Assembly: GCA_013426185.1 (NCBI GenBank) | Contig: CP058602.1 | Location: 628,549-692,548, forward strand | From: Candidatus Woesebacteria bacterium | GTDB lineage: Bacteria > Patescibacteriota > Microgenomatia > UBA8517 | Reading direction: 5' to 3' | Length of the DNA: 64,000 bases | In this document: in pieces, positions 4,301-51,911 of the stretch | Layout: each line of letters opens with the position of its first letter | How positions within the stretch are numbered: the first letter of the stretch is position 1 | The notes under the pieces: model-generated | What the model was told of the DNA's origin: nothing | Databases searched by the model: none | The model's input: only the letters and a program-made list of their open reading frames with translations | Made by a program: the position numbers and the translations under genes

Positions 4301-6454
4301 ATGGACAAAGTCTGGGACCACAAAGCTTGGGAAGAAAAGATTTACAAATCTTGGGAAACCTCTGGTGTTTTTACCCCAAAACCCCAAAAAAATAAAAAAC
4401 AATTCTCCATTATTATGCCGCCGCCTAACGCCAATGCCGATCTTCATATAGGTCATGCGCGCTTTATTGCCATCCAAGATATCTTGGTACGCTATCACAG
4501 GATGAAAGGAGAAACAACACTCTGGCTGCCTGGCGCTGATCATGCTGGAATTGAAACACAGTTTGTTTTTGAGAAAAAACTCAAAGAAGAAGGAAAAAGC
4601 CGACTCGACTTTAAACAAGAAGAGCTTTACCAAATGATATGGGATTACGTTCAGAAAAATAAGGTGAATATGGAAAGTCAAATCAGGTCGCTTGGCGCCT
4701 CTTGCGACTGGTCAAGAGAAAAGTTTACTCTTGACCCCAAAATAGTAAAAATTGTCTATAAAACATTTAAAAAACTTTACGATGATGGCCTTGTTTACCG
4801 GGGTAATAGAATTGTTAACTTCTGCCCTCGCTGTGGAACAGCTTACTCTCAACTTGAAATAGACACCAAAGAACAAGAAGATGAACTTTACTACATCGAC
4901 TATGGAACTATTACCATCGCCACAACTCGTCCTGAAACTATATTTGCTGATGCTGCTGTTGCTGTTAATCCCAAAGACAAACGCTACCAAAATTTAGTCG
5001 GCAAAAAAGCTATTATTCCTATAATTGAAAAGGAAATCCCCATTATTGCCGATTCACTTGTAGATCCTGATTTTGGCACAGGTGCATTAAAGATAACTCC
5101 AGGCCATGATGCCACAGATTTTGAAATTGGACAAAAGCATAATCTTGAAACCATCCTTGTTATTAATTACGAAGGCAAGATGATCAACACCCCTGAAAAA
5201 TATATAGGGCTAAAAGCAGAAGTAGCTCGAGATCAAGTAGTTAGTGACTTGAAAGAAAAAGGTAAAATCAAAAAAATAGAAAAAATAAAACACATAATAG
5301 CCATTTGCTATAAAGATAAAGGGTTAATAGAACCTTTACCTTACGAACAATGGTTTATCAAAACCAAAAGTCTTGCTGAAATGGCGCTCAAAGCAATCAA
5401 GGAGAAAAAAGTTTCTTTTACAAGCAAAAAATATGAAAAAATAGCTATACATTGGCTTAAAAACTTAAAAGACTGGAATATTTCAAGACAGATCGTCTGG
5501 GGAATAAGAATTCCTGCTTGGTATTGCAACGATTGCCATAATTGGACTATCACAGATGGTAAAAAACCTGAAAAATGCTCTTTTTGCAAAAGCAAAAATA
5601 TTATTCAAGACAAAGATACTTTTGACACTTGGTTTTCCTCAGGTCAATGGCCATACGCAACTCTTTTGGCAAGTGGTAATATTGATAATCTTGAAACACC
5701 CCTTAATTCAAAATCAAAGGAATACTCCGACTTTAATTTCTTTTATCCAACATCTCTTATGGAAACAGGCTACGATATTATTCCCTTCTGGGTTATTAGG
5801 ATGATAATGCTTGGGCTTTATGCCACTGGTGAAGTGCCATTCAAAGAAGTCTTAATCCATGGTTTGGTAAGAGATAAACAAGGCCAGAAAATTTCAAAAT
5901 CAAAAGGCAATGTTATCAACCCACTTGAGATGTCAACCAAATATGGGACAGACGCCTTAAGAATGGCAATGGTTTGGGGAGCCAAAGTAGAAAATGATAT
6001 TTCTTTATCTGAAGAAAATATTAGAGGACAAAGAAACTTCGCTAATAAAGTGTGGAATATTGCCCGTTTTATAACTCTTGTCTCAGAAAACAAAAAATGG
6101 CCAAAAAACATACCAGACATAAAAAATAAAGACGACCTGCGGCTTTGGAAAAAACTAAATGAAACAATAAAGAAAACGACCAAATATCTAGATAATTACC
6201 AGCTAAATTTGGCTGCTGAAGAAATTTACCAATTCATCTGGCACACTTTGGCTGACATTTATATTGAAAAAATAAAAATTAGAGAAGGAGAAAAGACAAG
6301 AGTTAGAAAAGATGCTTTGCCTATTTTGCAAAAGTCGTTTGAGATTTCTCTTAGACTTCTCCACCCTTTTATGCCATTTATTACAGAAACCATCTGGCAA
6401 GAATTGAAAATTTCCAAACAAAAGATAATAATCTCCGAATGGCCAAAACTATAA
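4301..6454 (+). CDS. valS: Class I aminoacyl-tRNA synthetase, most likely valine-tRNA ligase (short form)
   Basis: HIGH motif in ValRS-like context (PPPNANADLHIGHA). KMSKS-type motif (KISKSKGN). Zn-finger-like Cys pairs. At 717 aa it lacks the C-terminal coiled coil. Confidence 0.65.
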   Translation: MDKVWDHKAWEEKIYKSWETSGVFTPKPQKNKKQFSIIMPPPNANADLHIGHARFIAIQDILVRYHRMKGETTLWLPGADHAGIETQFVFEKKLKEEGKSRLDFKQEELYQMIWDYVQKNKVNMESQIRSLGASCDWSREKFTLDPKIVKIVYKTFKKLYDDGLVYRGNRIVNFCPRCGTAYSQLEIDTKEQEDELYYIDYGTITIATTRPETIFADAAVAVNPKDKRYQNLVGKKAIIPIIEKEIPIIADSLVDPDFGTGALKITPGHDATDFEIGQKHNLETILVINYEGKMINTPEKYIGLKAEVARDQVVSDLKEKGKIKKIEKIKHIIAICYKDKGLIEPLPYEQWFIKTKSLAEMALKAIKEKKVSFTSKKYEKIAIHWLKNLKDWNISRQIVWGIRIPAWYCNDCHNWTITDGKKPEKCSFCKSKNIIQDKDTFDTWFSSGQWPYATLLASGNIDNLETPLNSKSKEYSDFNFFYPTSLMETGYDIIPFWVIRMIMLGLYATGEVPFKEVLIHGLVRDKQGQKISKSKGNVINPLEMSTKYGTDALRMAMVWGAKVENDISLSEENIRGQRNFANKVWNIARFITLVSENKKWPKNIPDIKNKDDLRLWKKLNETIKKTTKYLDNYQLNLAAEEIYQFIWHTLADIYIEKIKIREGEKTRVRKDALPILQKSFEISLRLLHPFMPFITETIWQELKISKQKIIISEWPKL

Positions 6455-44605: not shown

Positions 44606-44627
44606 AAAAAGCCTGTACTTTAGGCTT
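44606..44627 (-). terminator. Rho-independent terminator-like hairpin on minus strand (AAGCCUAAAGUACAGGCUU + UUUUU)
   Basis: 6-bp GC-containing stem, 7-nt loop, followed by a T-run when read on the minus strand. It lies between the island's left end and the MFS gene, consistent with an original terminator of the tRNA-Arg/tRNA-Ser transcription unit. Confidence 0.35.
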
Positions 44628-44741
44628 GGAATTTATTATCTGTTCTGGGGTTATTTGAACGGCTTAAAATTTAATTTAGAATCTTTGCGGTGTCTGTTCG
44701 AAAAAATTCGAACCGATTTCGCCCAAAACCGATAAAACTCG

Positions 44742-44787
44742 CGGGGCGGGCGGCATTCCCCCCCAGACCCCCCTTCCGCCCGCCCCG
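44742..44787. repeat. GC-rich perfect 12-bp-stem hairpin (cggggcgggcgg…ccgcccgccccg) with C-rich 22-nt loop
   Basis: Direct reading. The composition is very atypical for this AT-rich window. Confidence 0.6.
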
Positions 44788-44971
44788 TGGAAGGCGACCT
44801 TTTCGGATTGAAAAACTGCCAAAGAACCTGAAAAAATATCGGCTCGAACTTTATTTTGGCCAAAAGCGGGCTTTTTCTCATCTTTGCCTTGTAAAAATTT
44901 ACTTGCTTTTATTATATTTGTTAGTATAATAATGAAAGAAGAAAATATCAACAATTTTATGATATCAAAAT

Positions 44972-45184
44972 ATGGAAAATAATCAAGGCAATAAATTAGG
45001 AAAGAAAATCAAAAAGTTAAGAACTGATCTTGGTTTGTCTCAAGACGAGCTCGCCCGAAAAGCCGATATACCTTATACCACTTTAACCAAGATTGAAACA
45101 GGGGTTATTAAAAAGCCTTCTGTGTATGTGGTGGCGAAGATTGCAAAGGCGTTGAATACAAAATTGGATGATTTAATAAATTAA
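44972..45184 (+). CDS. XRE-family HTH transcriptional regulator (candidate R-M controller C-protein)
   Basis: HTH KKLRTDLGLSQDELARKADIPYTTLTKIETG. 70 aa. Immediately upstream of the endonuclease and methyltransferase genes. Confidence 0.65.
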   Translation: MENNQGNKLGKKIKKLRTDLGLSQDELARKADIPYTTLTKIETGVIKKPSVYVVAKIAKALNTKLDDLIN

Positions 45185-45196
45185 GGATAAAAAACT

Positions 45197-45979
45197 ATGA
45201 ACTATTGGCTAAAATTAAGTATTGAATACGCTAACCAAAGAAGTTATTTGGATGATTTATTTCAAGTATATCCAACTATACCCGAGGGTATCAGAGATAT
45301 AGATGAAAATATTTGGGAAGAAGTAGAACAAGCTTTTAAAAACAAAGACAATACTGGACTGTTAAAGAGCCTTCTTAAGTTCGACCTTTTCCCAATAAAA
45401 GATTCTTATGTAGCTTATCTAAAGAGGGATCCGTCTGCAATCGAAAGAAACCCAGCCACAGTAAACCGACTTTGCGGAAGACTTTATGAAATGGGTCTCG
45501 ACAATATTTTTAAGCGTTGTTCAGAACCTAAAGAAACGAACAGACAAATAGGCCCTTTATTTAGGCGATGGCTTAACAAAAAATCTTTAGGTATTCAACC
45601 CGTTAAATTAGAAGAATTTTTAAAAACAAAAGAAAATGCCATATTAGATGGAAGTGATGCGGAGATAAAAAGTTTTGCTCAAGAGCATTTAAATTACAAC
45701 AGAAACAAAGGGCTAGATTTTATTGCTAGATTTAATGGTAAATACATTATTGGTGAAGCCAAATTTTTAACAGATTTTGGTGGTCATCAAAATGCTCAAT
45801 TCAATGATGCAATAGAAACACTGAAGTTGAAAGGTGTCAAGGCTATTACTATAGCCATATTAGATGGAGTTTTATATATCAAGGGGAATAATAAAATGTA
45901 TCGTGAAATAACGACAACTTTCAAAGACTACAATATCATGAGCAGTTTGGTTTTAAGAGATTTTTTATACCAAGTTTAA
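45197..45979 (+). CDS. Putative type II restriction endonuclease (PD-(D/E)xK-like)
   Basis: LDFIARFNGKYIIGEAKF gives a D…ExK arrangement. Position between the C-protein and the methyltransferase. Confidence 0.4.
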   Translation: MNYWLKLSIEYANQRSYLDDLFQVYPTIPEGIRDIDENIWEEVEQAFKNKDNTGLLKSLLKFDLFPIKDSYVAYLKRDPSAIERNPATVNRLCGRLYEMGLDNIFKRCSEPKETNRQIGPLFRRWLNKKSLGIQPVKLEEFLKTKENAILDGSDAEIKSFAQEHLNYNRNKGLDFIARFNGKYIIGEAKFLTDFGGHQNAQFNDAIETLKLKGVKAITIAILDGVLYIKGNNKMYREITTTFKDYNIMSSLVLRDFLYQV

Positions 45980-46065
45980 TTTATTTAGGACTATGATACT
46001 GACTTATAAAAATAAAAAAAAAAGAAATAGATATAATTAATCACACCAAGAAAGCCAAACTTGTT

Positions 46066-47121
46066 TATGTTTCTGAACAAAAGGGATTCAGAAACAAGCT
46101 AATTCAGGGTAATAATCTTGAAGTATTAAAAACTCTTTTAGAAGATTACAACTTTAAAGGGAAAATAGATCTTGTTTACATAGATCCTCCATTTGCTACA
46201 AACGGAGATTTTAAGATAAGTGATGATAGAGCTAATACCGTGAGTAAAAGCTCCTCTGATGAGGTCGCATATAGCGATACCCTAACTGGTAGCGATTATC
46301 TGGAATTTTTAAGAGAGCGTTTGATCCTATTGAGAGAATTGATGTCTGAAAAAGCGTCTATATATCTTCATATTGATTATAAGATTGGGCACTATGTGAA
46401 GGTTATAATGGACGAAGTTTTTGGGGTTGAAAATTTCCGTAATGATATAACACGTATCAAATGTAATCCTAAAAATTTTCAAAGAAAGGCTTATGGCAAT
46501 ATAAAGGATTTAATACTTTTTTATTCTAAAACAAAAAACCCAACTTGGAATGATCCGAGAGTTCCTTTTACTGAAGAAGACATCCGAAGATTGTTTACAA
46601 AAGTTGATAAAGATGGAAGAAGATATACAACTGTACCATTACATGCTCCAGGTGAAACATTAAACGGTAAAACTGGACAAGAGTGGAGAGGAATAAGACC
46701 TCCAAAGGGAAGACATTGGAGGAGCGACCCCGAAGTTTTAGATGAGCTAGATAAGAAAGGTTTAATAGAATGGTCAGAGAGTGGAGTACCGAGAAAGAAG
46801 ATTTATGCTGATGAACAAAAGGGTAAAAAAATGCAGGATATTTGGGAATTTAAGGACCCTCAATATCCTTTGTATCCTACGGAAAAAAACTTAGATTTAT
46901 TAAAGACTATTATAAAGGCTTCTTCAAATGAAGGCGATCTTGTACTTGATTGTTTTTGTGGATCTGGAACAACATTAGTTGCCGCACAAGAATTAAATAG
47001 AAATTGGATTGGTATTGACCAATCAGAGCATGCAATAAAAGTAACAAAAAAAAGACTATCTAAAATACCAAGAGATTTATTCTCTGGTGATGTAGAATAT
47101 GAATTTTTAATTCAAAAATAG
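46066..47121 (+). CDS. DNA methyltransferase (N6-adenine/N4-cytosine, beta-class)
   Basis: Motif IV DPPF (IDLVYIDPPFATNGDF) precedes motif I FxGxG (VLDCFCGSGTTLVAA). Start moved upstream to the ATG at 46066 from the track's GTG at 46240. Confidence 0.8.
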   Translation, partial: YVSEQKGFRNKLIQGNNLEVLKTLLEDYNFKGKIDLVYIDPPFATNGDFKISDDRANTVSKSSSDEVAYSDTLTGSDYLEFLRERLILLRELMSEKASIYLHIDYKIGHYVKVIMDEVFGVENFRNDITRIKCNPKNFQRKAYGNIKDLILFYSKTKNPTWNDPRVPFTEEDIRRLFTKVDKDGRRYTTVPLHAPGETLNGKTGQEWRGIRPPKGRHWRSDPEVLDELDKKGLIEWSESGVPRKKIYADEQKGKKMQDIWEFKDPQYPLYPTEKNLDLLKTIIKASSNEGDLVLDCFCGSGTTLVAAQELNRNWIGIDQSEHAIKVTKKRLSKIPRDLFSGDVEYEFLIQK

Positions 47122-47125
47122 CCAG

Positions 47126-48877
47126 ATGAGAATTACAGAATTAACAATAAAAAATTACCGGAGTTTTGACCCAGCAGGACAGACAATAAAATTCCCCTCG
47201 GTTCATTGTGCTTTAGTTGGAAAAAATAATGCAGGTAAGAGCAATATCTTTAGTGCATTAAACCTAGTTTTAGGAGCTAAAAATCCTGCTTACATAAAAT
47301 TTGAGGAAGATGACTACTTCGATATAAATTTACCAATCGAAATAAAAGTTGTTATTTCTGACATAACAGAGGATGATAAAAATATTTTGTTTACACTTCC
47401 TAATTTAACAAGGCAACAAAAAGGTGCTTTAAATTCAAAAATATCCAATGGCGAAGCAGATATAACTTTTTTGTTGCGAAAAAACTATGAATATATTCCA
47501 CTAGATGAAGACGAAGAACAAGCAGGTGAATCTCAAGATACTTTTGAAATAAAACTTTGGGGATTCAATGTTTATAGAAAAAAAGAAGATATTCGAAAAT
47601 TTTTAATACGCACGTTGTTAGTTCCAGCTGTAAGAGATTACAAAAATGAACTTTCTGCCTCTAAATGGACCCAATACGGGCAATTAATGAAAAGTGTTTT
47701 AGAAGACTCCCCTAAATATGCAGAGATAAAATCTGATCTTCAAAATTTAAATGAGAAAATTCAAGAAATATTTAAGAGCGAGAAAGAGAAACTTTTAAAA
47801 AGCGCGCGTATTGTTTCTTATGTTGATGATATTTCCTTTCAGTTAACAAAGGAAAACCATCCTTCAGAATTATTAAGAAATCTTGAGATTTTTATTAAAG
47901 AAGGTGGTAAATTATTTAATATCGATTATGTTGGTACAGGCACTCAAAGTGCTATTATTATTGGTATCCTTGAACTAGCATTAAAAAATAAATCGACAAA
48001 AAATAGGGTATTTTGCATTGAAGAACCAGAAGCCTTCATCCACCCTCATGGAATTAGGTATTTAGGAAGTCTTATTAAGAATATTTCTAGTGAGCAGAAT
48101 ACACAAGTTATTATTTCAACTCACTCTCTATCACTTACTGCTAATTTCGAACCAAAGGAGATAATTAAGGTTGATAAGGAAAACGGAAAAACTGTAATTA
48201 GACAAGATCCCTCTTTTGATGTTGTTCCTTTTAGACGATTTATTCATCAGGATAATGCAGAATTGTTCTTTAGCGATAGAGTAATTTTGGTAGAAGGACC
48301 AACAGAAAAGCATCTTTTCGATAATTTAGACAAAATCACAAAACAAAATCCCGCAAATCCAGATAGTGAGGATTGTAATTTTGACAGGATAAATATCGGT
48401 ATAATTAGGATGGATTCTGTTGATAGTATTGTAAATTACATAAAGATACTTTCTGCTTTTGGTATTGAATATTGCGCAATTGTTGATAAAGATTTTGTTT
48501 TAGATCCATCAAAACAGAATAAACTTAAGGAGTTATGTAGAGAGATCGGAGTTAATTATCAAAACAATGACATACCCCAACTGATAAATAATTTAAAATC
48601 AAAAAATATTCTAGTTAATACAAAAGGAGAAATCGAAGATTTATTTCCTGACCAAGATATTGCAAATATTACTGGAAGAAATATATCAGATATACAGGGA
48701 ATAAAGAGTAAATATCCAAATAAGACAAGCAAAGCATTTAAAGAATTGTTTGGTACTGGTAAAGCAGAATACGCAATCCAGATTGCAGGCTATTATGTAC
48801 AAAATAATACCTCTCATCCTTTAGAGGATATTATTAGAAAACTTTACAAAAAGGATATTTCTAATATAAATTTATAA
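47126..48877 (+). CDS. OLD-family ATP-dependent endonuclease (N-terminal ABC-type ATPase plus C-terminal Toprim; GajA-like)
   Basis: Walker A ALVGKNNAGKSNIF. Walker B / H-loop VFCIEEPEAFIHPHG. Toprim-like ILVEGPTEKHLFDNL … AIVDKDF. Confidence 0.7.
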   Translation: MRITELTIKNYRSFDPAGQTIKFPSVHCALVGKNNAGKSNIFSALNLVLGAKNPAYIKFEEDDYFDINLPIEIKVVISDITEDDKNILFTLPNLTRQQKGALNSKISNGEADITFLLRKNYEYIPLDEDEEQAGESQDTFEIKLWGFNVYRKKEDIRKFLIRTLLVPAVRDYKNELSASKWTQYGQLMKSVLEDSPKYAEIKSDLQNLNEKIQEIFKSEKEKLLKSARIVSYVDDISFQLTKENHPSELLRNLEIFIKEGGKLFNIDYVGTGTQSAIIIGILELALKNKSTKNRVFCIEEPEAFIHPHGIRYLGSLIKNISSEQNTQVIISTHSLSLTANFEPKEIIKVDKENGKTVIRQDPSFDVVPFRRFIHQDNAELFFSDRVILVEGPTEKHLFDNLDKITKQNPANPDSEDCNFDRINIGIIRMDSVDSIVNYIKILSAFGIEYCAIVDKDFVLDPSKQNKLKELCREIGVNYQNNDIPQLINNLKSKNILVNTKGEIEDLFPDQDIANITGRNISDIQGIKSKYPNKTSKAFKELFGTGKAEYAIQIAGYYVQNNTSHPLEDIIRKLYKKDISNINL

Positions 48878-50334
48878 AAGAATTTGCCGCCAAAGAAAAA
48901 CTTGAAATCGTCGCCTCGCTTTGCGAGGCAAAAACTGCCAAAGAACCTGGCCGAACTGTGTTCGGCGAAATGTTAGATAGAATTGAAAAGGGCGCAGCCC
49001 AAGGAATTTTGGCTTGGCATCCTGATAGACTGGCAAGAAATTCCATTGATGGCGGAAGGATTATCTATCTGCTGGACACAGGAAAACTTAAGGATTTAAA
49101 ATTTCCTACTTTTTGGTTTGATAATACACCACAAGGCAAGTTTATGTTGAATATTGCCTTTGGGCAAAGCAAATATTACATAGATAATCTTTCAGAAAAC
49201 ATTAAACGAGGACACAGGGCAAAACTACGAAAAGGTATTTGGCCAAGCTTTGCCCCTCTTGGATATCTCAACAACCATAAGACAAAAGGGATAGATATTG
49301 ATCAAGAGAAAGCACCGCTTATCAGAAAAGCGTTTGAATTATACGCCACTGGAGAATATACGCTAAAAGCAATTGCAAAAATTTTAAAAGACGCAGGACT
49401 TAGAAGCTACAAGGGCAAGGTGCTTTCTGTTTCCTGTGTCCAGCGAATGCTTAAAAATACGTTTTACTATGGTGTTTTTAGGTTCAATGGCGAAATGTAT
49501 GATGGAAGCCACGAGCCAATTATTTCCAAGAAACTTTTTGATACTATTCAACAGGTAATGAATAACAGAGGCAAGAAAAAGCGAAAAAGAAAACATAACT
49601 TTGCTTTTTCTGGGCTTATGCGTTGCGGAAATTGCGGTTGCATGATTACTGCTGAAATTCAAAAGGGATATATTTATTATCGTTGCACCAAGAAAAAGCA
49701 AAGATGCAATGAAAAGTATTTGCGCGAAGAAAAACTTGTTGAACAGCTAAAAGCAATAATTCAAAAAGTTTCCTTGCCAGATGAATGGGCAGAGAAAATG
49801 TTGGAAGAAATTGAGAAAGAGAAGGAACAGGCCAAACAAGAAACAAAATCACTTGTTCAAAATCTATTAAAACAAAAAGTGGCAATTGAAAGGAAGATGG
49901 ACAGACTGCTTGATCTTTATATTGAAGGCAAGGGTATTGAACCGGAAGAATATCAAGCTAAAAAACAGAAACTTCTTAATGAAAAACTGAAAATTCAACA
50001 GAAGATTAAAGATTTTGAACAAACAGGAAATAATTGGCTCGAACCAATGAAAGAAATGATTTTAGCCAGTAGCCAAGCCAAAATTCTATCGTCGCAGAGC
50101 GACAATTCTCAAATTCGAGCATTTCTAAAAAATATCGGCTCGAACTTTATTTTAAAAGGTAAAAAATTCCAATTTGAAGGGAAAATCGGCTGGCGTGCCC
50201 TTTTAAATTCCCCCCAGAATACCAATTGGCGGAGGGTACAGGATTCGAACCTGTGCCCGCCTGTAAGGCGGAGCGGTTTTCGAGACCGCCGCTTTAGTCC
50301 ACTCAGCCAACCCTCCACTCTTGGCTCCTTTTAA
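48865..50334 (+). pseudogene. Large serine recombinase lacking the N-terminal catalytic-serine segment (likely inactivated integrase of the island); 3' end runs into tRNA-Ser
   Basis: Resolvase-domain remainder …GILAWHPDRLARN…, recombinase domain, Zn ribbon CGNCGCMITAEIQKGYIYYRC, and coiled coil. The reading frame opens only at 48865, so roughly 40 aa including the catalytic serine region are missing. The ORF reads through the tRNA gene. Confidence 0.5.
50227..50316 (-). tRNA. tRNA-Ser (anticodon CGA), with CCA encoded
   Basis: Manual fold: acceptor GGAGGGT/ACCCTCC, anticodon stem GCGGT/ACCGC, loop CUCGAAA, long variable arm CCGCC…GGCGG, T-arm ACAGG-TTCGAAT-CCTGT. Confidence 0.8.
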
Positions 50335-51668: not shown

Positions 51669-51686
51669 CTTAATTTCCCTTACCTT

Positions 51687-51806
51687 GGTGGGTTGGCCGA
51701 GTGGTTTATTTCGAACGAAGTGAGAAACAAGCTTTGTTTTTTAAGCGGAGCGAGAAAAACAAAGCTTATGGCGCAGGTCTTGTCCGCCATTGGCGGATCA
51801 AGTTTT
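51687..51806 (+). pseudogene. Partial/disrupted copy of tRNA-Ser(TGA): 5' part, then a 60-nt insert containing a 12-bp hairpin, then D/anticodon-stem remnant
   Basis: ggtgggttggccgagtggttta and …atggcgcaggtcttg… are identical to the intact gene at 51912. The insert carries aagctttgtttt / aaaacaaagctt inverted repeats. No T-arm follows. Confidence 0.5.
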
Positions 51807-51843
51807 AGGAGGGATTGATATCTGTTGTTTTGGCTTTTACATT

Positions 51844-51868
51844 GGTGGGTTGGCCGAGTGGTTTACTG
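51844..51868 (+). pseudogene. Second partial copy of the tRNA-Ser(TGA) 5' end (acceptor plus D-arm only)
   Basis: ggtgggttggccgagtggtttac matches the first 22 nt of the intact tRNA, followed by unrelated sequence. Confidence 0.5.
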
Positions 51869-51911
51869 CGAAGCAGCAAAACACGAGGCTAATCTGAATA
51901 GCTTTTTCTTT

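What the first reader, a model, noticed from the sequence alone, without database searches (positions are those of the whole stretch)
44811..50153. Circularly permuted att-like repeats: 20-bp A and 27-bp B are adjacent at 44811..44857 but flank the recombinase body at 48931..48950 and 50127..50153
aaaaactgccaaagaacctg followed by aaaaaatatcggctcgaactttatttt is contiguous at the island's left end. At the right end exactly the same two sequences are separated by 1176 bp comprising almost the whole recombinase ORF. The sequence left of A at 44.7 kb (…aaaaaattcgaacc…attcccccccaga…) resembles the sequence right of B at 50.16-50.22 kb (…aaaaaattcc…attccccccaga…). That pattern is expected from a circular junction, a tandem duplication followed by deletion of an internal 1176-bp recombinase copy, or a mis-assembly of a repeated element.
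Basis: seen in the sequence. Interest (0 to 1): 0.55.

Follow-up and report, generated by a model that had tools for sequence, protein, structure and literature searches.

The report
Recombinase-gene fragments in mobile-element backbone
The two short repeats are real and are a conserved part of a widespread family of serine-recombinase mobile elements that insert next to tRNA genes; this window holds a rearranged, dead copy, and the repeats point to an undescribed way these elements may control or rearrange their own recombinase gene.

Summary
A (20 nt) lies at 44811-44830 and 48930-48949. B (27 nt) lies at 44831-44857 and 50127-50153. Chance expectation is zero. They are not att sites, a circle junction or a misassembly.

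The exact A|B junction occurs in at least 120 independent metagenome contigs and in the isolate Schleiferia thermophila DSM 21410.

The island (about 44686-50232) is an integrative element run by a large serine recombinase (LSR). Its attP lies inside the 3' end of the LSR ORF, and it is inserted at the 3' end of tRNA-Ser(cga).

In the canonical layout, A|B sits about 300 bp upstream of the LSR start, in antisense orientation, beside a second, inverted attP copy. Inverted about 120-bp repeats flank the cargo.

The window copy has the cargo segment flipped. It has also lost about 0.4 kb between two copies of a third LSR-derived repeat (K), which removes LSR codons 1-28 including the catalytic serine region.

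Within the LSR gene, K, A and B have the most conserved synonymous sites, and two covarying hairpins flank A. A sister LSR family carries antisense copies of different coding segments in its leader.

I infer, but have not shown, an RNA-level control of the recombinase. The same repeats also drive natural rearrangements.

The parts
44686..44690 (+). attL crossover region (TGCGG). To its left is host DNA, an intergenic stretch after the MFS transporter gene. To its right is the element.
   Evidence: Similarity to related elements starts here. L013 reads host-TGGCGG-tgtctgttcg. L212, whose host DNA is 96% identical, shares the same host flank up to this point.
44691..44810 (+). X, the P' arm of attP. 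It holds the last 14 codons of the native LSR tail (..CLFEKIRTDFAQNR, stop at 44733-44735) and a 12-bp G+C hairpin (44742-44753 pairing with 44777-44788).
   Evidence: frame translation; native homologue tails NWRCAFEKIRTDF..; hairpin predicted; 97% identical inverted copies of X in L013 and L014.
44811..44830 (+). A, module copy. It equals LSR gene nt 138-157 (codons 46-52, KTAKEP).
44831..44857 (+). B, module copy. It equals LSR gene nt 1335-1361 (codons 445-453, KNIGSNFIL).
   Evidence: the A|B junction is found in at least 120 contigs.
44858..44877 (+). G (GGCCAAAAGCGGGCTTTTTC). In intact relatives a second copy sits 24 nt before the LSR ATG.
44889..44951 (.). Predicted divergent sigma70-like promoters. 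TTGTAA-18-TATATT lies on + (towards XRE and cargo). TTGATA-17-TATACT lies on - (44951->44923), reading through rc(G)-rc(B)-rc(A) into the G+C hairpin.
   Evidence: This is a consensus scan only.
44972..45184 (+). XRE-family HTH regulator, the first gene of the cargo segment.
   Evidence: Pfam HTH_3 E=4e-16; conserved next to A|B-G in relatives.
45197..47121 (+). Cargo: a Tsp45I-like type II restriction enzyme (45197-45979) and an N6/N4 methyltransferase (45993-47121, frameshifted in an A10 run at 46014-46023).
47126..48877 (+). Cargo: OLD-family ATPase/TOPRIM nuclease (Old/GajA-like).
48877..48912 (+). K (LSR gene nt 85-120, KEFAAKEKLEIV). Here it is fused directly to the OLD stop codon. This is the scar of a roughly 0.4-kb deletion between the cargo-end copy K* and the gene copy K.
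   Evidence: collinear comparison with L157; (L010).
48913..48929 (+). Hairpin c (GCCTCGC TTT GCGAGGC), directly before gene copy A.
   Evidence: 99.3% paired in 64 distinct genes, with compensatory double changes.
48930..48949 (+). A, gene copy.
48950..48966 (+). Hairpin d (GCCGAAC TGT GTTCGGC), directly after gene copy A.
   Evidence: 95.3% paired, with compensatory changes that also alter amino acids.
48877..50226 (+). 5'-truncated large serine recombinase. Codons 29-478 are 100% identical to P0001 over the 449-aa query. Codons 1-28, which hold the catalytic Ser motif YARKSTD, are missing, and so is the upstream region.
50127..50153 (+). B, gene copy.
50154..50226 (+). X', the P arm of attP. 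It encodes the LSR tail KGKKFQFEGKIGWRALLNSPQNTNW.
   Evidence: Intact relatives carry an inverted copy upstream of the LSR.
50227..50316 (-). tRNA-Ser(cga). Its 3' end (TGGCGG on the + strand, 50227-50232) is the attR crossover region, and the LSR frame reads on into the antisense tRNA.

Best explanation
A and B are two of several short pieces of the recombinase gene that are duplicated in the backbone of a widespread family of integrative elements run by a large serine recombinase (LSR).

Shown: the element's attP (X'-TGGCGG-X) lies inside the 3' end of the LSR ORF, and its target is the 3' end of a tRNA gene, here tRNA-Ser(cga). Intact elements carry a second, inverted attP copy just upstream of the LSR. 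The cargo segment (XRE regulator plus defence genes) is bounded by inverted copies of X of about 120 bp. One cargo end carries A|B-G and the other carries K*, a copy of LSR nt 85-120. In the canonical state, A|B lies about 300 bp upstream of the LSR ATG in antisense orientation.

The window holds a derivative with two changes. First, the cargo segment is in the flipped orientation, so A|B is in sense orientation 4.1 kb upstream. Second, recombination between the now direct repeats K* and K has deleted about 0.4 kb: the inverted attP, G, the ribosome-binding region and LSR codons 1-28. The recombinase is therefore dead and the element is stranded.

Inferred: K, A and B are kept identical to the gene because they act at the nucleic-acid level. 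The most likely mechanism is that the LSR mRNA leader (rc(B)-rc(A)), and in the excised form the trailer (rc(K*)), base-pair with the coding region. A is displayed there between two conserved hairpins. This pairing would hold recombinase expression down. As a by-product, the same repeats are substrates for homologous inversions and deletions.

The confidence of 0.7 applies to the structural account. I put the RNA-level function alone at about 0.4.
For: - Genuineness and spread: the exact A|B 24-mer occurs in at least 120 metagenome contigs. It also occurs in L001, L013 (Schleiferia thermophila DSM 21410), L014, L019 and L021. Variants of the junction are found with LSRs down to 55% identity.
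- attP inside the ORF: native homologue tails read NWRC.FEKIRTDF.., which is X read in frame. Integrated tails read NWRRG.DSNPR, which is antisense tRNA. L184 shows LSR-B-X'-O-X intact.
- Canonical layout: L013, L014, L019, L021, L001. In 48 of 58 module/LSR pairs, the module is 263-348 bp upstream of a full-length LSR on the opposite strand.
- Both cargo orientations exist. At attL: L013 versus L157 and the window. At intact attP: L184 versus L056.
- The window deletion: the window is collinear with L157 except for L157rc 4706-5095, and the breakpoint lies in the 17-nt repeat AAAGAATTTGCCGCCAA. L039 and L041 show the same class of deletion.
- Constraint: third-codon-position conservation is K 0.96, B 0.90 and A 0.88, against 0.65 for the rest of the gene. 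These segments rank among the top windows of the whole gene.
- The module tracks its own locus's gene variants, for example in L040, L062, L064, L078 and L022.
- Hairpins c and d covary.
- Antisense copies of CDS segments occur in the leader in 58/64 K-type loci (those whose LSR carries the K segment) and 8/8 outgroup loci. The same-strand controls are 5/64 and 1/8. The outgroup uses different CDS segments, again placed side by side.
- A predicted promoter reads into rc(B)-rc(A).
Against: - No transcript data exist, and the promoter and terminator are only consensus matches.
- The predicted leader RNA folds no better than shuffled sequence (z = -0.7).
- The K-c-A-d region gives only z = -1.6.
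- Module-versus-gene mismatches show no clear G-U-compatible bias: about 10 versus 7 distinct changes.
- DNA-level and RNA-level functions cannot be separated by sequence alone, because every RNA helix proposed here is also a DNA inverted repeat.
- How A|B, K* and the inverted attP first arose is not explained.
- No empty target site was found in a relative.
- Reads were not available, so the window's own K-K deletion junction has not been checked against raw data.
Confidence: 0.7

Rival explanations
1. Neutral scar. A|B and K* are leftovers of an older, degraded recombinase copy, arising from a tandem or nested element followed by deletions. They have no function and are kept similar to the gene only by occasional gene conversion or by hitch-hiking.
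For: A|B is formally an internal deletion of the gene. The family is full of deletion and inversion products at these repeats: c-A|B in 15 contexts, body-B-G in L002 and L008, and K-K deletions. The origin of the module is unexplained.
Against: The junction and the exact 20-nt and 27-nt boundaries persist across LSRs of 55-100% identity. K, A and B have the strongest synonymous constraint in the gene, which means the gene copy is constrained and not only the scar. Tracts of 20-27 nt are short for efficient conversion (background knowledge). A sister family has analogous patches built from different CDS segments.
Confidence: 0.17
2. DNA-level switch. The repeats are selected as substrates for homologous inversion and deletion. 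These events reversibly or irreversibly reconfigure the element by flipping the cargo, swapping the LSR tail, or inactivating the LSR after integration.
For: All four left/right context combinations exist for B (A-B-G, body-B-X', A-B-X', body-B-G). Three of four exist for A. Both cargo orientations occur in closely related elements: the window versus L001 at 99.5% LSR nucleotide identity, and L157 versus L013/L014. The flipped isomer is linked to LSR truncation in 3 of 5 cases.
Against: The reciprocal product X-A-body was never seen (0 of about 113 gene contexts), and B-G-LSR was never seen. The rearrangements therefore look like one-way decay. The outgroup patches are only 13-17 nt, which is too short for efficient homologous recombination. 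There is no within-population evidence of switching.
Confidence: 0.13
3. Protein-binding sites. K, A, B and G are accessory or operator sites for the LSR or the XRE regulator, and they happen to lie both in the gene and in the intergenic backbone.
For: K and A are nearly invariant, and they share the 9-mer GCCAAAGAA. The module lies between divergent predicted promoters next to an attP copy, which resembles res between tnpA and tnpR in Tn3-type elements (background knowledge).
Against: The module tracks locus-specific synonymous variants of the gene, which is not expected for sites read by a conserved protein. A, B and K share no common dyad or core. The outgroup patches shift position and sequence between members while staying complementary to their own CDS.
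Confidence: 0.07
4. Assembly artefact or att/circle junction. On this view A-B is a chimeric join or the joined ends of the excised island.
For: A is exactly 20 nt, which equals k-1 for k=21 assemblers. The source is probably a metagenome-derived genome.
Against: The same junction, with the same flanks, is found in at least 120 independent contigs from many samples and assemblers and in an isolate genome. The real att junctions map elsewhere.
Confidence: 0.03

Closest known systems
Large serine recombinase (serine integrase) integrative elements and prophages (phiC31, Bxb1, TP901-1 type; Tn4451 TnpX, SCCmec Ccr)
   Same: The domain set is the same: Resolvase, Recombinase and Zn-ribbon domains followed by a long C-terminal region. 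Integration leaves short att sites with only a few shared bases at the crossover (TGGCGG/GCGG).
   Different: attP lies inside the recombinase ORF, so integration replaces the C-terminal tail. The target is the 3' end of tRNA genes, which is unusual for serine integrases. A second, inverted attP lies upstream of the gene. Short gene-derived repeats (K, A, B) sit in the backbone. No recombination directionality factor was identified.
SSV1-type 'suicidal' archaeal tyrosine integrases
   Same: The attachment site lies within the integrase's own gene, and integration into a tRNA gene changes the gene (PMC8371274).
   Different: Those are tyrosine recombinases from archaeal viruses and plasmids, and their gene is split into two far-apart parts. 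Here only the last approximately 15 codons are exchanged, and the enzyme is a serine recombinase in bacteria.
Inverted-repeat isomerisation systems (yeast 2-micron FLP/FRT circle; invertible G/C/P segments of Mu, P1 and e14)
   Same: Two inverted copies of the recombination region divide the element into two arcs, and both relative orientations are found.
   Different: No evidence shows that the LSR catalyses the flip. Serine integrases are not known to recombine attP with attP or attL. Homologous recombination across the 120-200-bp repeats is enough to explain it. Switching within one population has not been shown.
Antisense and fold-back control of transposase expression (IS10 RNA-OUT and fold-back inhibition; IS200 leader)
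   Same: Sequence in the leader is complementary to the recombinase mRNA, and the expected effect is to keep recombinase expression very low (background knowledge).
   Different: Here the leader carries two side-by-side patches that match coding segments about 1 kb apart, rather than the ribosome-binding region, in the K-type family. No transcript data exist.
tRNA-linked defence islands
   Same: The element sits at a tRNA 3' end. Its variable cargo consists of restriction-modification, OLD/Gabija-like and CBASS-like (SMODS+SLATT) genes between conserved ends.
   Different: Most described tRNA islands use tyrosine integrases (PMC4383910 abstract). This family uses an LSR and is found mainly in Patescibacteria MAGs, though also in several other phyla.

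Membership tests
Large serine recombinase | N-terminal resolvase catalytic domain with the serine nucleophile | tested here: not met
   The window copy starts at codon 29, and the Pfam Resolvase match begins at profile position 26. Full-length relatives (P0001-P0003) carry MKYFIYARKSTD... The window gene is therefore a truncated member.
Large serine recombinase | Recombinase domain (PF07508) and zinc-ribbon domain (PF13408) after the catalytic domain | tested here: met
   E = 2e-19 and 6e-10.
Large serine recombinase | Catalyses attP x attB recombination at a 2-bp crossover | not testable with these tools
   Only sequence comparison of attL, attR and attP was possible. These share GCGG/TGGCGG.
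Integrative element at a tRNA gene | Element bounded by attL and attR, one of them in the tRNA 3' end, with attP reconstructable from the two ends | tested here: met
   Window junctions lie at 44686-44690 and 50227-50232. The joined form X'-TGGCGG-X is present in L001, L010, L013 and L184.
Integrative element at a tRNA gene | Empty target site in a related genome | tested here: inconclusive
   The closest host relative found (L212, 96% nucleotide identity) also carries a different, degenerate element at the same attL.
Site-specific DNA inversion system (Hin/Gin/shufflon type) | Segment flanked by inverted recombination sites and found in both orientations | tested here: met
   Inverted X copies in L013 (4632-4750 and 9747-9865). 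Orientation 1 is seen in L013, L014, L019, L021 and L184. Orientation 2 is seen in L157, L056, L010 and the window. The two orientations come from different genomes, not from one population.
Site-specific DNA inversion system (Hin/Gin/shufflon type) | Dedicated invertase acting at those repeats | not testable with these tools
   There is no small invertase gene in the element, and an LSR role in inversion is unknown.
Antisense / fold-back control of a recombinase gene | Leader sequence complementary to the recombinase mRNA | tested here: met
   58/64 K-type and 8/8 outgroup loci carry antisense copies of at least 13 nt, against same-strand controls of 5/64 and 1/8.
Antisense / fold-back control of a recombinase gene | A transcript that contains the complementary segment | not testable with these tools
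   Only a consensus promoter was found (TTGATA-17-TATACT, 10/12 matches).
Assembly artefact | Junction confined to this one assembly | tested here: not met
   At least 120 independent contigs and an isolate genome carry it.
IS110-type bridge-RNA system | DEDD/RuvC-like recombinase with a structured non-coding RNA that pairs with donor and target | tested here: not met
   The recombinase here is a serine recombinase. No Rfam family matched the region.

The most novel reading that the evidence does not exclude
The recombinase mRNA senses the element's topology. In the excised circle, the LSR transcript carries antisense copies of its own coding segments at both ends: rc(B)-rc(A) in the 5' leader and rc(K*) in the 3' trailer beyond attP. 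These converge on the K-hairpin-A-hairpin region of the coding sequence. Integration through the attP in the gene's 3' end removes the trailer and changes the protein tail. The mRNA fold would then differ between the free and integrated states, and so would recombinase output. A sister LSR family achieves the same effect with different coding segments.
Probability: 0.25. Interest if true: 0.75.

Novelty: new variant of a known kind. Interest (0 to 1): 0.6.

Why it matters
Serine integrases are major genome-engineering tools, yet their natural regulation is known for only a few phages. This family is abundant in Patescibacteria and occurs in several other phyla. It carries defence systems and targets tRNA genes.

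Its architecture has not, to my knowledge, been described: attP inside the ORF, a second inverted attP, and gene-derived antisense patches under strong synonymous constraint.

If the patches regulate the recombinase, that would be a new self-control principle for integrative elements. It would also make a long-standing question directly testable: how a serine integrase without a known directionality factor is kept quiet after integration. A cultured host, S. thermophila DSM 21410, is available for the test.

For annotation, this analysis explains a recurrent class of apparently broken recombinase genes and of contig breaks next to tRNA genes in metagenome-assembled genomes.

Tried and rejected
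- Empty-site search. I used the neighbouring MFS transporter. The nearest relative also carries an element at the same site, so no empty site was found.
- Rfam scan of 40-53 kb at E<=1. It found only tRNAs and tmRNA, with nothing over X, A|B or the leader.
It is weak (12 nt, 2.7% of shuffles).
- G as a crossover site. There were 0 cases of B-G-LSR against 121 of B-G-other and 77 of hp/other-G-LSR. Rejected.
- Reciprocal inversion at A. The predicted X-A-body junction was never seen, so the c-A|B forms are better explained as deletions.
- A hairpin spanning the body|B boundary. Only 71% of positions pair and there is little covariation. Not supported.
- G-U-compatible bias in module-versus-gene mismatches, as a test of RNA pairing. 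There is no clear bias once shared changes are collapsed.
- Alignment-based folding of 49 leaders. It mainly returned the rc(G):G helix, which is also a DNA inverted repeat. Not decisive.
- Single-sequence folds. Not significantly better than shuffles.
- LSR-catalysed crossover at the A/B borders. Rejected because the A|body and body|B junctions share no dinucleotide and have no dyad symmetry.
- Four literature searches. None found a description of this family.

Full report
**1. The observation**

The two repeats are there. B (AAAAAATATCGGCTCGAACTTTATTTT) lies at 44831-44857 and 50127-50153. On the left they abut. On the right they are 1177 nt apart. Neither has another match in the window even with 2-3 mismatches, and shuffles give none. 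The claimed resemblance between the sequence left of A and the sequence right of B is weak: the best local alignment is 12 nt, and 2.7% of shuffles reach that score.

**2. What lies between the repeats**

The interval 44972-48877 encodes four genes:
- an XRE-type regulator;
- a Tsp45I-like restriction enzyme;
- its methyltransferase;
- an OLD-family ATPase/TOPRIM nuclease.

From 48877 a large serine recombinase (LSR) frame runs without a start codon. It continues through A and B and on into the antisense strand of tRNA-Ser(cga) at 50227-50316. The frame is 100% identical, over the 449-aa query, to a 517-aa protein (P0001) that has 28 more residues at its N-terminus: MKYFIYARKSTDSEERQVLSIEAQLAEL. 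Those residues hold the catalytic serine motif. The window gene is therefore 5'-truncated, and the stop codon of the OLD gene abuts codon 29.

**3. The true attachment sites**

Homologue C-termini fall into two classes after ..NW.
- Most read RRG(R/W)DSNPR.., which is the antisense T-arm of a tRNA.
- A few read RC.FEKIRTDF..N*.

The second class is exactly the window sequence at 44691-44735 read in frame. So attP lies inside the 3' end of the LSR ORF. I call the last part of the ORF before the crossover X' (50154-50226). The crossover region O is TGGCGG. The part after it is X (44691-44810); it carries the native tail, the stop codon and a 12-bp G+C hairpin.

The window has host|TGCGG|X at 44686-44690 (attL) and X'|TGGCGG|tRNA at 50227-50232 (attR). 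The joined form X'-TGGCGG-X is present in L001, L010, L013 and L184. In the isolate Schleiferia thermophila DSM 21410 (L013), attL reads host-TGGCGG-X. A and B are therefore not att sites and not the circle junction.

**4. A|B is not an artefact**

It also occurs in L001, L013, L014, L019 and L021. Its usual context is X-A|B-G followed by the XRE promoter, where G is GGCCAAAAGCGGGC... Variant junctions at the same position are found with LSRs down to about 55% identity.

**5. Canonical architecture**

The canonical layout (L013, L014, L019, L021, L001) reads:

host - O - X - [rc(K*) - cargo on the minus strand - rc(XRE) - rc(G) - rc(B) - rc(A)] - rc(X) - rc(O) - rc(X') - small hairpin - G - LSR (…K-c-A-body-B-X') - O - tRNA.

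K is LSR nt 85-120. K* is its copy at the cargo end, usually split by one or two small G+C hairpins. So:
- inverted copies of X, about 120 bp each, flank the cargo segment;
- inverted X' copies flank the LSR;
- an intact inverted attP sits upstream of the LSR.

In 48 of 58 module/LSR pairs, A|B lies 263-348 bp upstream of a full-length LSR on the opposite strand.

**6. The window is a rearranged derivative**

The cargo segment occurs in both orientations. Orientation 1 is seen in L013 and L184. Orientation 2 is seen in L157, L056, L010 and the window.

L157 is an intact orientation-2 element and is collinear with the window. The window lacks L157rc 4706-5095. That stretch holds the K* insert, rc(X), rc(O), rc(X'), the hairpin, G, the ribosome-binding region and LSR codons 1-28. 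The breakpoint lies in the 17-nt direct repeat AAAGAATTTGCCGCCAA. L039 and L041 show the same class of deletion with other breakpoints.

Other natural variants fit recombination at the short repeats:
- LSR-B-G-XRE (L002, L008), a B-B deletion;
- K-c-A|B-G, an A-A deletion;
- A|B-X'.

A close host relative (L212, 96% identical) has yet another degenerate arrangement at the same attL.

**7. Evidence that the repeats are more than scars**

- Synonymous constraint. In 64 distinct LSR genes, third-codon-position conservation is 0.96 for K, 0.90 for B and 0.88 for A. It is 0.65 for the rest of the gene. These segments rank at the top of the whole gene.
- Covariation of module and gene. The module copy carries the same locus-specific variants as the gene copy, for example in L040, L062, L064, L078 and L022.
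- Flanking hairpins. In the gene, A is flanked by two 7-bp hairpins, c and d. They are paired in 99.3% and 95.3% of cells, against 0.2-0.5 for slid controls. Compensatory double changes in them even alter the encoded amino acids.
- Family-wide antisense patches. Exact reverse-complement copies of internal CDS segments, at least 13 nt long, occur in the 350 nt upstream of the LSR in 58/64 K-type loci (those whose LSR carries the K segment) and 8/8 loci of a sister LSR family. Same-strand controls are 5/64 and 1/8. The sister family uses different segments (cds ~346-382 and ~1285-1300), again side by side, next to the start codon, and each member's patches track its own CDS.

**8. Mechanism (inferred)**

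A predicted promoter, TTGATA-17-TATACT at 44951->44923, reads through rc(G)-rc(B)-rc(A) into the G+C hairpin and a U-rich stretch. In the canonical orientation this is the LSR-sense strand. The LSR leader, or a short terminated RNA, would then carry antisense B and antisense A. In the excised form the trailer after X is rc(K*) (L184).

I therefore favour pairing between leader/trailer and the coding region as a means of limiting recombinase expression. Nothing at the RNA level has been shown. Single-sequence folds are not significant, and a G-U bias test was inconclusive. A DNA-level role and a neutral-scar reading remain open.

**9. Comparison and novelty**

The element is an LSR-type integrative island carrying defence cargo at a tRNA gene. 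Having att within the recombinase gene recalls the SSV1-type archaeal tyrosine integrases (PMC8371274). The two-arc inverted-repeat layout recalls the 2-micron circle. The leader complementarity recalls IS10 fold-back and antisense control. Four literature searches found no description of this family.

I rate it a new variant of a known kind. The window copy itself is a dead relic. The interest lies in the family-wide design that it exposes.

Noticed in passing
window 45993-46030: The methyltransferase gene of the Tsp45I-like restriction-modification pair is frameshifted in a run of ten A (46014-46023). The 95%-identical gene in L008 has one A fewer and an open frame. This could be a phase-variable tract, decay, or a homopolymer sequencing error.
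   Followed up: partly
window 49512-49527 and 50026-50041: A perfect 16-nt inverted repeat lies inside the recombinase gene (gene nt 720-735 and 1234-1249). It is 89% paired across 64 distinct genes, against 0.2-0.5 for slid controls. Both arms are among the most synonymous-site-conserved windows, which suggests a conserved long-range helix in the mRNA.
   Followed up: partly
L010 3885-3920; L013 4770-4805; L121, L189, L097, L212: The cargo-end copy K* is split after GCCGCCAA by one or two small G+C hairpins. Their sequences differ between elements but stay self-complementary, and one often ends in ..CGGATT, like the tip of X. They could be structural elements or footprints.
   Followed up: no
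window 51669-51726 and 51826-51883: Two extra copies of the 5' half of a tRNA-Ser-like sequence (GGTGGGTTGGCCGAGTGGTTTA) lie between the called tRNA-Ser genes. Neither ARAGORN nor Rfam calls them. The cluster at 50.2-52.1 kb holds four tRNA-Ser and two tRNA-Arg genes in both orientations, that is, several potential targets for this element family.
   Followed up: no
L212 1-1700 (JGI Ga0373637_0006081): A host 96% identical to the window carries a different degenerate element at the same attL. It has X cut to about 24 nt and joined to rc(K), an inositol-phosphatase-like cargo gene, and rc(G)-rc(B)-rc(A)-rc(c)-rc(K*). It also has an extra 1.7-kb gene between the MFS transporter gene and the site.
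   Followed up: partly
L045 (minus strand, near 2675): A divergent element has a shifted junction, AAAACTGCCAAAG|TATCGGCTCGAAC. Twelve bases are missing at the A|B join, so the two halves persist even where the exact join does not.
   Followed up: no
L056 2560-4370; L002 3489-5400: Some elements are integrated through the upstream, inverted attP. The tRNA then lies upstream of the LSR on the same strand, which leaves the attP in the LSR 3' end intact. Either attP copy can therefore be used.
   Followed up: partly
window 44609-44627: A terminator-like hairpin readable on both strands lies in the host intergenic DNA just outside attL.
   Followed up: no
L008 7007-8864; L002 5406-7715: The cargo between the conserved ends varies widely: SMODS+SLATT (CBASS-like) after the same restriction-modification pair in L008, and flavodoxin-like and other genes in L002. 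The cargo segment behaves as an exchange hotspot.
   Followed up: no
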